Shown here one piece after another: positions 14,997 through 55,568 of a stretch of 64,000 nucleotides of DNA. Position 1 is the first letter of the stretch, and each line of letters begins with the position of its first letter. The stretch spans positions 18,240,464 through 18,304,463 of the forward strand of contig NC_043011.1 in assembly GCF_006345805.1 (NCBI RefSeq). Reading direction: 5' to 3'. The translations under genes were made by a program, and so were the position numbers. A model generated the notes under the pieces. The model did not search any database and was not told the DNA's origin. It was given only the letters and a program-made list of their open reading frames with translations. The DNA is from Octopus sinensis (Eukaryota).

Positions 14997-15120
14997 AAAG
15001 AAAATAGTAAAAAGTGAAAAAACTTCACAAGGCTTGTTTTAAAAGGTTAAAACATATATATTTGAGTCATTATGTCAGAAGAATGTTAGAAATTTTTTTC
15101 ATACAATGACATAGTTTTTG

Positions 15121-15160
15121 AAGAAATGACCGGTTTCGCGTTCAGCTTTTCAAATTTCTT
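15121..15160 (-). ncRNA. Minimal type I hammerhead ribozyme, U3-A8 variant
   Basis: Minus strand reads AAGAAAU-UUGAAAA-GC-UGAAC-GC-GAAA-CCGG-UC^AUUUCUU: 7-bp stem I, 2-bp stem II, palindromic ACCGGU stem III. Predicted cleavage after the C at 15128. Confidence 0.8.
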
Positions 15161-15170
15161 ACATCGATGT

Positions 15171-15208
15171 AAAATTTGAAAAGCTGAACGCGAAACCGGT
15201 CATTTCTT
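15171..15208 (+). ncRNA. Minimal type I hammerhead ribozyme, U3-A8 variant (shortened stem I)
   Basis: AAAAU-UUGAAAA-GC-UGAAC-GC-GAAA-CCGG-UC^AUUUCUU; predicted cleavage after C15201; stem I only 4 bp. Confidence 0.72.
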
Positions 15209-15868
15209 CAAAAACTAAGTCAATGTATGAAAACATTTTCTTTACATTCTTCTGACATAATGACTCAAATATATATTTTTTAACCTTTTAAAACAAGCCT
15301 TCTGTAGTTTTTTCACTTTTTACTATTTTCTATATATTCAACCACGTGCTTTCACACACCAACTTTCTCACCTATATATATATAAATATATATGTATGTG
15401 TATGTGTGTGTTTGTGTGTATGTGTTTGTCCCCCCAACATAACTTAACAACCGATGCTGGTGTATTTACGTCACCGTAACGTAGCGGTTCGGCAAAAAAC
15501 ACCGATAGAATAAGAAGAATAAGTCCTGGGATCGATGTGCTCGACTAAAAGCGGTGCTCTAGCATGGCCAGAGTCAAATGAGTGAAATAAGTAAAACAGT
15601 AAATAAGAGTAAAGAGTATATGTATATGTTTGTGTGTCTGTGTCTGCGTTTGTACGTGTGTATGTGTATGCGTGGGTGTATAAACATATACACACACACA
15701 CATATATATATATATGAGGGGCTTCGGAATGTTTTGAGCCTTCAAGTCTAGTAGCTTCATCAAAAGTCATCTACAATGTTATTTTTTTTATTTTTGAGGC
15801 TCAAGACTTTTCATAAACAACTCGTACATTTATGTACGTTTAGATACATATACATATATGTATATATA

Positions 15869-50100: not shown

Positions 50101-52562
50101 CTCCGTTAGTCGTCTTTCATATTATGCAATATTTCAGTTTGCAGTGTCAAACTGCATTATATTTCGATTATTACTCTTTCAACTTATATCCTTATATTAC
50201 GCCTTGTTTTGAGACGTATGTATTCTTTCATTCTAAATTATTGTTGTAAATAATAAGAATATTCACATAATGGAACTTATCTTGTTTAAACTAAAAGCCA
50301 GCTTATGTATATGGAAATAAAGAAAGAAATGGATACTATTGATTTAAAATGAAAATAAAAATCTATTTCTCATATTTTAGACATAATATGCGAATAATCC
50401 TTTTCCCGAATTTAACTTAAATTGACAACTTAACTGACTAAATTGTATTAGCTTTCCTATTTTATTACTTTTGCTTAAATCATCCACAAGGGAATTCTCT
50501 GTTTTGAAAGTGATTTAAATCATTTTATAGCTTATTGCTCAGCGAATTCCAATACAATTTATATTTACACGCGGTATTTGACATTAGTAATATTATCTTG
50601 CCATTCTATAATCCCCAATAGATATATATTTGAGAAGCATTTGTAAGAATTATTCTTTTACTTTCAAAGATCAAGAAATAATGCACGTCTCTTTGACCAA
50701 TAATTTCTGCATAAAATCAATACGAAAATTAAGAAAAAATCTATATAGAACACAAAGCCTACTTTGCAGTCACAGTGGAAGATACTGCCAAGCAATAAGG
50801 AAACAAATTTTGAATGCTAGCGATATTGAAATACATCGATTCGTGTTAAAAGTGAATACTTCATATATAAATTACTAACCTAATTAAATACACGATTAAT
50901 TTTAAAATGTATCAAAAATGCAACAAATAAGGCGATAGGATGAAATCTGAAAATAAATGCGTAAAACTATTTCATGCCGTTCTTGTATATACTGATAAAA
51001 GTTTCAGACGAGTCATATAAATGTATAACTATATAAATACATGGTTCTTCTGAAAATCAATCGTATGTCTCCTAAAATACTCTATTTTAGAGTGTTTTTT
51101 AAATTCATTTATTCTTTTACTTGTTTCTTTCATCTAACTTCGGTAATGTAGAAGACAAATTCATTGTATCGTCAGAAATGTTAATGACCTGTAATAAATT
51201 AATTGTATAACTGGATTTTCGTGCAAAGTTTAAAATTCTGAATCACAAATATTGTCACCATATTAATTACCCCTTATTTGTCAAGGTCCCATATCACGAA
51301 ATAAAATAATTTTTTTTCTTGTTACGAAAGTTAAAGAAACAATAAATTTTGCAATATCTATAGTTTACCAGTTCATGATCTGTACACCGCCATTGAATAC
51401 GGTGAAACAATTAGAAGACGACTTCCATGATTATATTTCTTCTATTGCAACAGTGGAAAAAATATTGGGAGAAATCCCTGTTGGTTATCATTGCTTTTTA
51501 AAACGCTTTACCATCATTGATAAACATTCCGTTAATTCAGAACATATTGTTGTTAAAATCTTTGCAAGAAAAATTGAGTTTGACAGTAAGTTAATTGTTA
51601 GATATATATTTTTCGTAATGCACATCTACATCTTAGTTATTAGTCTCCTGAATACTGCTCTCGTAAATTCTCTTTACTGAGTTAGATGAAACTCCTAAAT
51701 GTGTACTGGTTTCAAAATTGATGCCTATGATTACGAGCAAATATGATGAAAGTTTGACACAAATCTATGATTTAGGACGATTTGGGACAGCACGCCTATA
51801 AAACTACTTTTAATCTAAAAGTATTTCATCTCTGCATTATTAATTTTCAGTATTCAATACCATGGAAGTCTACACAAATGTGTAGATCATACTTAATCGT
51901 TAGGGGATTACACATTTTTTCATATTTCTCCTCGATAAAGTTTTAAGAGAGTCATGAGAATATAAAAAATCACAAGAGAATACAAGCGTTAGGCTAGGTA
52001 TGAAACATTAACACTCTTCATTCAGAGTAGCTCCTCCTCCAAAAAGTGAAAAGTGAAGCTAGATTCAATGAAATCTGAGTAAATCATATCATTCATCAGA
52101 AATCACCACCCAAGGCGATAACTTAACATCAGACGCACATGAAATAATTGATACTACATTTGCATTTATGAACAATGGTACATATATTGAAGGACGGAGG
52201 ACGGTAGAGATAAACAAGCATAATATAGGTAATAAGACTCACTCTGTGTGTATATATATATATATATATGTTTCTTTTGGGACTTTTCTCTTTTCCAATG
52301 AATAGCTATACACCTAACGACAAACACTCTCTTGGCTCTTTTCTCTCTTTCTTTCTCTCCCTCTCTTTCTCTGTATATACATATATATATACATATATAT
52401 ATATATATATTATATATATATATATATATACATACATATATCAGATAGTAAAAAGTGAAAAACCTACAGAAGGCTTGTTTTAAAAGGTTAAAAAATATAT
52501 GTATTTGAGTCAATATGTCTGAAGAATGTTATAATTTTTTTTCTTACAATGACATAGTTTAA

Positions 52563-52602
52563 AAGAAATGACCGGTTTCGCGTTCAGCTTTTCAAATTTT
52601 TT
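52563..52602 (-). ncRNA. Minimal type I hammerhead ribozyme, U3-A8 variant, downstream of the GIY-YIG ORF
   Basis: Same 33-nt core as the other copies; one mismatch in stem I; predicted cleavage after the C at 52570. Confidence 0.78.
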
Positions 52603-52711
52603 ACGTCGTTATGTTTACGTTGAGAAGAGTTATCGTTATGTTTATGTTGAGAAGAGTTCTAGATAAGGGGAAGTAATAAGTGATTTCTTCCGGTGTAAGG
52701 GAGATAATCGC

Positions 52712-53450
52712 TTAAAATTTTTTTCTTTTCTTTTGGAGTGAATTTCTCTGTAAAATTATGTTGGAATGGTTAAGTTTGGGCTTGTATTTTTCAATGAAGA
52801 ATGTTTCCTTGTTTAGTCTAATTTGTGTTGGTGTTCCGATAGCACATTGGTAAAATGGAAAGATTAAAAATTGTGGTAGTAGTTGCTTTGCGCATTTCTC
52901 AATGTGCTCACTAAAGGGTATCATTCTGTATTCTGGGAATGCAATCTGTTGTCGATGCAGTGTGCATCTACGTCTGAGTAATAGTCCCGTGGACCCCACG
53001 TAGTCTTGGTGGCATCCCGAGCATTTTATGACAAATTATGTTTTCAAAGGCACAAGTAAAATTAGATTTGATCTTGAATTTCTGTCCCTCTTTGAAGAGG
53101 AATTCTGATCCTTCTAGCAGGTTTGGACATGTTGCACAGTTCGGTCTACCACATTTTTTTTACTTTTGCATCCGTAATTTCAGGAAACAATTTTGCCTTT
53201 GTGAGAATCTTTTTAAGTGATTTAGGTTGTTTGTAGCTTTTAATGATTTGGTGTATGTTTAGAATTTCCTTTAGTTTGGTGTCCTTATGAAGTATTGGTA
53301 AATTCTGGGTTATGATGATGAAGGCTTCTTTGTTTCTGGGGTTGTATGTGGATATGTAAGGTAGTATTTTCGGGGAAGGTGTGTTGTTGTGTTGAACTTT
53401 CCTTAAAGTTTCTATGTTGATTTCTGTTGCACGTCTGATCCCATCCTCTA
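52712..53450 (-). pseudogene. PLE linker + GIY-YIG endonuclease domain (frameshifted)
   Basis: ORF 52712-52999 plus upstream frames; YVGST, conserved R, H-H and RxxxE..LN motifs. Confidence 0.9.
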
Positions 53451-53508
53451 TGAACTCTTCTCATCATAAACGTAAGGATAACTCTTCTCAACGTAAACAT
53501 AACGACGT

Positions 53509-53548
53509 AAGAAATTTGAAAAGCTGAACGCGAAACCGGTCATTTCTT
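53509..53548 (+). ncRNA. Minimal type I hammerhead ribozyme, U3-A8 variant
   Basis: AAGAAAU(53509-15) UUGAAAA(16-22) GC-UGAAC-GC GAAA(32-35) CCGG UC^(53541) AUUUCUU(42-48); perfect 7-bp stem I. Confidence 0.82.
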
Positions 53549-53745
53549 CTAAACTATGTCATTGGAAGAAAAAAATTTATAACATTCTTCAGACATATTG
53601 ACTCAAATATATATATTTTTTAACCTTTTAAAACAAGCCTTCTGTAGTTTTTTCACTTTTTACTATTTTCTATATATTCAACCACGTGCTTTCACAAACC
53701 AAATTTCTCATCTATACATATATACATATACATATACATATATGT

Positions 53746-53836
<91 letters not shown>

Positions 53837-53879: not shown

Positions 53880-55568
53880 TAATTGGAATTTACATAAAAA
53901 CAAACGATGAAACAGGAGTATAAGCAACAAGAATCAGTATTTGTTTGACGTTGGAGAAAGTAAGAATGTATTTTATGTTTCGAGACTACGCTCTTCAACA
54001 GAAAGTTATAAGAGAAAATAACCAGAGGGAGAGAAAATTTTAAAAAAAACTTGTGGATTTAGTCATCAGGCGTGGCAACTGTTTAGGAAAGAAGGTGAGA
54101 CAGTAAAGTATTGGCGAAACCAAAACGTAGTTGTTCGTGCGTGTGTGTAAGTGAAAATGTGTGAGGTGTGTGTTAGTATGTGTGGGTAGGAAATAGTGAC
54201 GGTGACGTGTGGATGTGTGCGTGTGCATGTTCTTCTGCAATGCATGGATGTGTAGTTGACAGTGTTTGGTAGTGCGGATAATGGTGTGTGAGTGTGCAGA
54301 AGATCGAGTGTGGTGAGTGTGCTGGGGAGTGCTGGAAGTGTGGGGATGCGGGGTTCAGGATGTTCGTGTGGAGGTGCAGGGCTGAGGATGTGGATGCGGG
54401 GTATGTAGATGTGGGATGTGGTGCTGGAGTGGGTATTAATGAAAAGAGAACGTAAATAGAGGGAGTAGGTGTCCCATGAAGAGAGGAGAGGAGGGAAGTC
54501 AGATGAAGAGAGGAGGCGAGCTGATCCCATGTGGCGCAAAGGAATGAAGAGAGAAGATTAATAATGGTCCACGGCGAAGACGAGTGTCCGGATGGCCCTT
54601 CTCCAAAGACAATCTGAATACAGACGCGTTGTAGTGAAGACCAACAGAGAGGAAATGGCACGAGACCGGTGTGTCATTGCCGAGTCTGATGCCCCGGAGT
54701 TGTTCTGCGAACCGGTCAACCAAGTGGTGTCCCGTTAGACCGATGTAGAGAGAATAGCAGAAAGATAAGGAGATAGAGTAGATGACTTTGCTAGAAATGC
54801 AAGTAAAGGAGTTGATGATATGGTTGGAAATATGATGGTTGATGTTGGAGAGGTGGGGGCAAGTTCGGCAGGGTGGGCGGGAGCAGTGAAACGAGCCAGG
54901 CTGGGAGGTGGTGTTACGGAGGAATCTGTGTGCTCGTTTGAATGAAGAAAGGGGTAGGCTGGGAAGATGTTAGAGGGGTAGGTATCGGACTGGAGTCGTC
55001 AGAAGGCACGGAGAATGATGCGTTGCAGGAGCAGGCTAGATGGGTGATAGGTGAGAGGAAATGGGAGAAGGGCAACGCCAGTGTGGGTGCAGGGAGAGAG
55101 AGTAGAGTCACAGGCCATGGAACGTGCTCTGGCAGGGGCTGTGTGGATAGTGGTGAGGTGATATCCACAAAGAATGAATTGGCAGGCCATGAATTGTGAC
55201 TAAGTTTCAAAGTCATTGTTCTCATTGCAGAGCCTGAGCAGACGGAGAAATTGGGAGTAGGGGATGGAATGATTTGTGTGGGCAAGGTGGCAAGAAGAGA
55301 GGTTAATGTATGAGTGTGAGTCGGTGTATTTCTAGTGGATCGAGGTAGCGACAGCCGAGTGGTTTGTGTTGACTGAGATGTCACTAATTGCGACGGAAGT
55401 GTTGGAGTGTACAGAAGAATTCGGGCGCAGGATAGAAGGACTGGATGAAAGAGTGGAATGAGTCTAGCTGTTCGCGGGAGAGTGAGGGTGCGCCGATACC
55501 CTCAGTAATATAACGACCGTATAATTCGTCCGTGGAACCAGTGAATCCTGAGAAAATTTTGGCCCCGA
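53880..55568 (-). mobile_element. Second, distinct decayed Penelope-like element (RT C-half, thumb, Cys linker, GIY-YIG, 3' region)
   Basis: Minus strand LYGRYITEGIG (degenerate RYIDD), KYTDSHSY..SIPYSQFLRLLRLC, LTYHP, CSRPPCRTCP, FTCISSKVIYSI..LYIGLTGHHLVDRFAEQLRGIR..PVSCHF. Confidence 0.9.

What the first reader, a model, noticed from the sequence alone, without database searches (positions are those of the whole stretch)
53509..53548. Four copies of a minimal hammerhead ribozyme with a compensatory U3-A8 core
Seen: the 33-mer TTGAAAAGCTGAACGCGAAACCGGTCATTTCTT is identical at 15121-15153(-), 15176-15208(+), 52563-52595(-) and 53516-53548(+), while the flanking arms differ at many positions. 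It folds as stem I (AAGAAAU/AUUUCUU), UUGAAAA, 2-bp stem II, GAAA, palindromic ACCGGU, GUC^. Established: the canonical core is C3UGANG8A with a C3-G8 tertiary pair, so U3/A8 is the compensatory swap; PLE repeats carry minimal type I hammerheads with palindromic stem III that can cleave as dimers. Inference: this is a self-cleaving variant that a CUGANGA search would miss. The class is known; whether this family is described needs a search.
Basis: partly seen in the sequence, partly recalled or inferred. Interest (0 to 1): 0.78.

Follow-up and report, generated by a model that had tools for sequence, protein, structure and literature searches.

The report
Penelope retroelement hammerhead, U-A core
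The four identical 33-base motifs are the end-repeat hammerhead RNA of a Penelope-like jumping gene; it likely cuts itself weakly when two copies pair, and its unusual U-A core pair is already in print, so this is a new example of a known kind.

Summary
Confirmed. The 33-mer is present four times, but these are two insertions of one Neptune-type Penelope-like retroelement (RT plus GIY-YIG, about 4.2 kb when whole), each a head-to-head inverted pair. It lies in the element's end repeat (pLTR). It is a true hammerhead homologue: related elements keep the fold with two-sided changes at the 3-8 pair, stem I and stem II. Shared changes between subfamilies avoid core and stems (0 of 33 positions against 34 of 161 in the flanks). 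Two copies are predicted to fold into the dimeric hammerhead. Cleavage was not tested. The window's own copies are probably trapped in sense-antisense hairpins, and only two of the four keep the full stem I. U3-A8 minimal hammerheads in Penelope pLTRs were published in 2014 (PMC4209133), including the same UUGAAAA core, and this scan noted the same kind twice in other genomes. What is mildly new: in this genome U3-A8 is the majority state (5,980 against 128 C3-G8 matches to one pattern), and a U3·G8 subfamily exists inside this family. New member of a known kind.

The parts
53509..53548 (+). Hammerhead copy D: stem I 5' strand 53509-53515, core U3-A9 53516-53522, 2-bp stem II with 5-nt loop 53523-53531, G12-A14 53532-53534, palindrome A15.1-U16.1 53535-53540, C17 53541, stem I 3' strand 53542-53548
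52563..52602 (-). Hammerhead copy C (U3 at 52595, C17 at 52570); stem I has an A·C mismatch; lies about 115 nt downstream of the endonuclease stop
15121..15160 (-). Hammerhead copy A (U3 at 15153, C17 at 15128); full 7-bp stem I
15169..15208 (+). Hammerhead copy B (U3 at 15176, C17 at 15201); stem I clipped to 4 bp at the inversion junction
52437..53453 (-). 5'-truncated copy of the Penelope-like element: end of ORF, 3' UTR and pLTR, ending without the tail
52712..53453 (-). Frameshifted ORF remnant in three frames: end of RT, C-x4-C-x2-C linker, GIY-YIG endonuclease
   Evidence: Pfam GIY-YIG only weak, E 0.089 and below cut-off; continuous with RT in longer copies
53452..53715 (+). Inverted second copy of insertion 2: pLTR from 64 nt before U3 to the end of the roughly 40-nt tail
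14999..15166 (-). Insertion 1, left arm: pLTR stub without tail
15165..15375 (+). Insertion 1, right arm: pLTR stub with tail; the two arms form a near-perfect palindrome
52374..52441 (.). (TA)n tract at the left end of insertion 2, the likely target
53713..53833 (.). (TA)n tract at the right end of insertion 2

Best explanation
This is the minimal type I hammerhead motif in the end repeat of a Neptune-type Penelope-like retroelement, conserved in its active lineages, and it likely cleaves slowly after C17 when two copies pair through their ACCGGU palindromes. Shown: position in the pLTR, conservation, cross-family covariation, predicted dimer fold. Inferred: a transcript of a full-length element carries two same-strand copies about 3,970-3,980 nt apart, which would form the dimer and release a unit-length RNA. 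Further inferred, following the published model: that RNA may be closed into a circle and copied by the element's RT from a point 130-170 nt past the cut. The four copies in this window are dead-on-arrival insertions whose read-through RNA would hide the motif in a sense-antisense hairpin.
For: Location downstream of a GIY-YIG ORF that joins an RT in longer copies. Related elements at 43-47% protein identity carry a C3-G8 motif at the same place with the same palindrome and re-paired stem I. In 8 hand-picked relatives 90.8% of 87 cells pair, 8 of 12 pairs change on both sides, and the 3-8 pair is U-A in 5 and C-G in 3. In 143 family copies no shared substitution falls in 33 core and stem positions, against 3 of 7 free and 34 of 161 flank positions, Fisher p 9e-4. 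Position 17 is C, A or U in family consensus states and position 8 is A or G opposite U3. The cofold minimum of two 40-mers of copies A or D is the dimeric hammerhead, -13.3 kcal/mol. Full-length copies with two same-strand motifs exist (L031, L045). U3-A8 cores are reported active in vitro (PMC3088659 section 8, citing earlier work), and PLE motifs cleaved weakly as dimers (PMC4209133).
Against: No cleavage data for this family. Stem II has 2 bp, only 1 bp in two sister families, and I saw no tertiary contact. 49 of 143 copies, whole subfamilies, lack A1.1 and so the 1.1-2.1 pair, yet spread. A subfamily with a U3·G8 wobble also spread; it was not in the 143-copy sample. The dimer's energy gain is no better than shuffles (149 of 300 as low), and copies B, C and an A1.1-less copy do not take the hammerhead dimer as their minimum. 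5' ends of insertions do not cluster at the cut site, and all 3' ends lie past it. Two other 3'-end facts weaken necessity: Naiad PLEs thrive without hammerheads (PMC8557442 passages), and 8 of 9 Xenopus retrozyme dimers showed no cleavage (bioRxiv 10.64898/2026.07.22.740005).
Confidence: 0.68

Rival explanations
1. It descends from a hammerhead and keeps the fold, but cleavage is negligible; selection keeps it as a protein-binding or RNA-dimerising signal for the element's RT.
For: Subfamilies lacking A1.1 or carrying U3·G8 multiplied; stem II shrinks to 1 bp in sisters; insertion ends show no mark of the cut; PMC4209133 itself leaves non-cleavage roles open.
Against: The positions kept invariant are the catalytic ones (G5, A6, G12-A14, U16.1), the 3-8 pair covaries, and position 17 avoids G as cleavage rules require.
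Confidence: 0.22
2. [quoted passage not shown]
For: A same-strand copy lies about 215 nt upstream of the likely start codon in full-length elements.
Against: The monomer hammerhead needs a 2-nt loop; with one stem III pair it costs +3.5 kcal/mol against a -3.0 minimum. Of 3 copies that run 5' past the unit junction, 2 extend upstream of the cut site, and none of 52 nearby 5' ends is at the cut (the sample is biased against such ends).
Confidence: 0.07
3. The motif is an ordinary stretch of a young repeat that resembles a hammerhead by chance.
For: No Rfam hammerhead match at E up to 1; monomer folding is no better than shuffles, z 0.75; copies are 85-97% alike throughout.
Against: Same motif at the same place with compensatory changes in elements only 43-47% identical in protein; published PLE motif with the same core.
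Confidence: 0.03

Closest known systems
Minimal type I hammerheads of Penelope-like elements, U3-A8 variant of Schistosoma mansoni Cercyon elements (Cervera and De la Pena 2014, PMC4209133; main text parts 1-3 of 4 and supplement parts 1-2 of 3 read)
   Same: In the pLTR of an RT plus GIY-YIG element; U3-A8 in place of C3-G8 (about 1,300 hits in S. mansoni; family 4 has the same UUGAAAA core); G10.1-C11.1; palindromic stem III; inverted pairs on opposite strands; dimer logic.
   Different: Stem II is 2 bp (theirs mostly 3-8 bp); no extra nucleotide after A9; stem I is 7 bp; palindrome is 6 nt (ACCGGU), as in their fly, mosquito and shrimp variants rather than the 4-nt consensus. No cephalopod entry in the parts of table S1 and figure S3 that I read.
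Small hammerhead variants of Penelope-like retrotransposons that cleave as dimers (Lunse, Weinberg, Breaker, RNA Biol 14:1499; title and second-hand summaries only)
   Same: Short stem III, PLE association, cleavage as dimers.
   Different: Could not be read; whether it already lists this family, 2-bp stems II or U3-A8 is unknown.
Natural U3-A8 and 2-bp stem II hammerheads (Perreault et al. 2011, PMC3088659; passages and section 8 read)
   Same: 3-8 covariation seen in nature; stem II often only two pairs.
   Different: Those with short stem II commonly use a pseudoknot; I did not find or test one here.
Neptune-type EN+ Penelope-like elements (Craig et al. 2021, PMC8557442; passages read)
   Same: C-terminal GIY-YIG, CX2-5CxxC linker, 5' truncation, inverted 5'-truncated partner copy, 30-40-bp tail at one end, (TA)n targets, hammerhead near the 3' end.
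   Different: Neptune versus Nematis was not resolved by a tree with named references.

Membership tests
PLE minimal type I hammerhead | Core Y3-U-G-A-N-R8-A ... G-A-A-A ... U-H with a Watson-Crick 3-8 pair | tested here: met
   Sequence; 3-8 pair U-A in 5 and C-G in 3 of 8 relatives
PLE minimal type I hammerhead | Open stem I flanking the motif, with covariation | tested here: met
   6 of 7 pairs change on both sides across relatives; full stem in 2 of 4 window copies; 1.1 pair missing in 49 of 143 family copies
PLE minimal type I hammerhead | Stem II closed by G10.1-C11.1 | tested here: met
   G-C in 7 of 8, one gapped; second pair C-G to U-A in L179
PLE minimal type I hammerhead | Extra nucleotide between A9 and G10.1 and a stem II of 3-8 bp (2014 consensus) | tested here: not met
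   Absent here. The consensus is not strict: two entries of figure S3 also lack the extra nucleotide
PLE minimal type I hammerhead | Palindromic stem III that allows a dimer | tested here: met
   Cofold minimum is the dimeric hammerhead for copies A and D
PLE minimal type I hammerhead | Located in the pLTR of a PLE | tested here: met
PLE minimal type I hammerhead | Self-cleavage after H17 as a dimer | not testable with these tools
   Needs an in vitro assay; only assembled contigs were available
Neptune-type EN+ PLE | Single ORF with RT and C-terminal GIY-YIG | tested here: met
   804-aa frame in L050 with RVT_1 E 6.6e-7 and weak GIY-YIG; relatives carry PF00078 and PF01541
Neptune-type EN+ PLE | CX2-5CxxC linker between RT and EN | tested here: met
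   C-x4-C-x2-C in the window remnant and in loci
Neptune-type EN+ PLE | Placement in the Neptune clade by RT phylogeny with named references | not tested
   No named Neptune or Nematis reference was in hand
Canonical type I hammerhead of non-LTR retrozymes | Short non-coding tandem repeat, 4-bp stem II, loop 1-loop 2 contact | tested here: not met
   Sits in a coding 4.2-kb element with 2-bp stem II; such repeats exist separately in G000

The most novel reading that the evidence does not exclude
In this genome the catalytic 3-8 pair of hammerheads has flipped from C-G to U-A repeatedly, in several separate Penelope families and in a retrozyme-like repeat, passing through a U·G wobble that is still caught as a spreading subfamily of this very element. 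U-A is now the rule here, so standard CUGANGA searches would miss most of the ACCGGU-type ribozymes of this genome, and the family is a natural series for measuring how little hammerhead activity a retroelement needs.
Probability: 0.3. Interest if true: 0.5.

Novelty: new member of a known kind. Interest (0 to 1): 0.3.

Why it matters
The role of PLE hammerheads in vivo is still open. This family offers natural variants in one genome (U-A or U·G at 3-8, with or without the 1.1 pair, C or A at 17, 1-2-bp stem II) that all spread, so it allows a direct test of whether cleavage is needed. It also shows that counts based on the canonical core can badly undercount hammerheads in some animal genomes. 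It is not a new ribozyme class or a new core variant.

Tried and rejected
Rfam gave no hammerhead hit, only hairpin-type miRNA models on the 15.1-kb palindrome and on microsatellites, all below their gathering scores. Monomer folding energy was uninformative. No relatives were found in viral contigs or genome contigs. RNA evidence: no RNA holder listed on record; all runs laid were contigs, which cannot show ends; no end cluster was listed, and one contig of a run only guessed to be RNA spans the predicted cut; none of this is used as evidence. An alternative register using the internal CUGAAC as the core fails: no 3-8 pair and no stem I (sequence). I first read the 283 C3·A8 matches as a family-level intermediate. 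One search showed that one large group is a minority form of a bigger U3-A8 family, and another large group lacks stems I and II, so I dropped that reading except for two tandem retrozyme-like loci (L203, L204). A protein tree placed a C3-G8 family (L138) nearer to this family than two other U3-A8 families, but on only 112 residues and with weak local support; it is a hint of repeated flips, no more. A 5'-UTR intron was considered; no GT-AG joint was listed. Lunse et al. and Przybilski and Hammann 2007 are not held in the library.

Full report
Observation. The 33-mer occurs exactly four times at the stated places, against none in 100 shuffles. Self-comparison shows two insertions, 14999-15375 and 52437-53715, each made of two copies joined head to head. 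Only the copies at 53509-53548(+) and 15121-15160(-) have the full 7-bp stem I.

The host element. The minus strand of 52712-53453 holds a frameshifted ORF with a C-x4-C-x2-C linker and a GIY-YIG-like end (Pfam match weak). The window lies in G000, 2.72 Gb. Longer copies extend the ORF into a reverse transcriptase: L050 has an 804-aa frame with RVT_1 at E 6.6e-7. A protein search returned 373 relatives at E up to 1e-30 among 7,999 scored, many with RT and GIY-YIG domains; the named animal ones are from bivalve molluscs. The whole unit is about 4.2 kb (L031:866-5045). Linker motif, inverted truncated partner, tail and (TA)n target all match the description of Neptune-type PLEs in PMC8557442 (passages). 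G000 has 375 exact matches to the central 26-mer (control 0) and 918 matches to a pattern anchored only on the flanks (control 3). That the repeats around it look like those of an octopus is my recollection and was not tested.

Is it a hammerhead? Within the family I aligned 143 distinct copies from loci L002-L110 and the window. Substitutions shared by at least 5% of copies fell on 0 of 11 core, 0 of 22 stem, 3 of 7 free and 34 of 161 flank positions, anchor positions excluded (Fisher p 9e-4; 0 of 33 against 40 of 161 in the 101 copies not picked for likeness to the window). Neighbouring flank changes are not independent, so p is optimistic. Rare private changes hit stems as often as flanks (0.016 and 0.017), as expected for neutral decay after insertion. 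Against strict constraint: 49 of 143 copies lack A1.1, and a subfamily outside this sample, mostly over 90% identical in protein where aligned in frame, has U3·G8 (L213-L216). Across families, the only 2 relatives found among 84 metagenome candidates (43 and 47% identity) both carry a C3-G8 motif just after the stop, with the same GAAACCGGU, a 1-2-bp stem II and a different, paired stem I. Sister families in G000 change stem II and stem I in pairs. On an alignment of 8 sequences that I chose, 90.8% of 87 cells pair, 8 of 12 pairs change on both sides, 0 of 500 shuffles reach the covariation score, and slid controls give 37-61% paired. The structure came from the window copy and the sequences are related, so these controls are lenient.

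How it likely works. A monomer cannot form stem III; two copies of the A or D 40-mer have the dimeric hammerhead as their predicted minimum, -13.3 kcal/mol, with both cores unpaired. The energy gain is ordinary (149 of 300 shuffles as low), and copies B, C and an A1.1-less copy prefer other folds. Full-length elements hold two same-strand motifs 3,973-3,980 nt apart (L045, L031), the arrangement for a cis dimer. Of 162 copies with a 3' part, 66 end 150-159 nt and 88 end 190-199 nt after U3, well past the cut at +25/+26. So the RT template is either uncut at the 3' motif or circular, as PMC4209133 proposes. Of 52 5' ends between -120 and +100 none is at the cut and two are within 5 nt; the sample is biased against such ends, so this is weak. 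In the window the pairs are inverted, and read-through RNA folds into long hairpins (-216 kcal/mol for insertion 1) that bury the motif. Cleavage, circularisation and expression are inferred, not shown.

What is known. PMC4209133 (main text parts 1-3 of 4; supplement parts 1-2 of 3) reports U3-A8 minimal hammerheads in PLE pLTRs of S. mansoni, about 1,300 hits, one family with the same UUGAAAA core, and low dimer activity for a C3-G8 family. PMC3088659 (passages and section 8) reports natural U3-A8 cores and frequent 2-bp stems II. Reviews were seen as passages (PMC6765202, PMC7229834, PMC7761336, PMC5737381). The 2026 bioRxiv preprint on retrozymes was read in parts 1-3 of 5, without supplements. 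Six searches found no paper on this family or on hammerheads in this animal group, but Lunse et al. 2017 is not held and its alignments could contain it. Two earlier scan notes on other genomes reach the same verdict; none exists for this genome.

The wider pattern. With one pattern (Y-U-G-A-N-R-A, 3-14 nt, GAAACCGGUH) G000 gives 5,980 U3-A8 (control 67), 597 U3·G8 (40), 283 C3·A8 (38) and 128 C3-G8 (25) matches. With a second palindrome class it gives 1,182 U3-A8 (71) and 422 C3-G8 (20). These are pattern counts without stem checks and are driven by a few large families. Two other Neptune-type families and a 360-bp retrozyme-like repeat also have U3-A8 forms. A small tree hints at more than one flip but is weak.

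Verdict. A real PLE hammerhead homologue, probably weakly active as a dimer in the master element, of a published variant type. New member of a known kind; interest 0.3.

Noticed in passing
window 53970-55501 (-): A second, older Penelope-like remnant lies right beside insertion 2: a C-x4-C-x2-C linker and GIY-YIG-like frame at 54499-54969 (no Pfam hit), and near 53971-54014 what looks like a decayed C3-G8 minimal hammerhead with a 3-bp stem II.
   Followed up: partly
L114-L142, L192, L203, L204, L207, L208: A 360-bp tandem or inverted non-coding repeat with a canonical-size type I hammerhead (4-bp stem II), retrozyme-like. It occurs with C3-G8, C3·A8 and U3-A8 cores and with two alternative palindromes.
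   Followed up: partly
L143-L172, L175-L177: Two further Neptune-type families in G000 with U3-A8 motifs: one with a 5-bp stem II and an ACAUGU palindrome after a repeat-rich 3' UTR, one after a 1-2-kb microsatellite-like 3' UTR with an atypical stem II.
   Followed up: partly
L213-L218: Subfamilies of this element with U3·G8, or with A at position 17, and with or without A1.1: a natural variant series.
   Followed up: partly
L124, L138, L193, L219, L220: An older Neptune-type family with a 2-bp stem II occurring as C3-G8 and U3·G8, with an unpaired base before position 3 like the A1.1-less subfamilies.
   Followed up: partly
G000 matches; L117, L221, L222: A frequent motif with only 4 nt between A9 and G12, that is almost no stem II, in a repeat family with no PLE protein match in the loci fetched.
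   Followed up: no
L002-L110: 3' ends fall at two fixed points about 40 nt apart, and in inverted pairs one arm usually has the tail and the other lacks it.
   Followed up: partly
P0036, P0062, P0068, P0100: Close PLE proteins are filed under bacterial symbionts of bivalves, probably host DNA in those assemblies.
   Followed up: no
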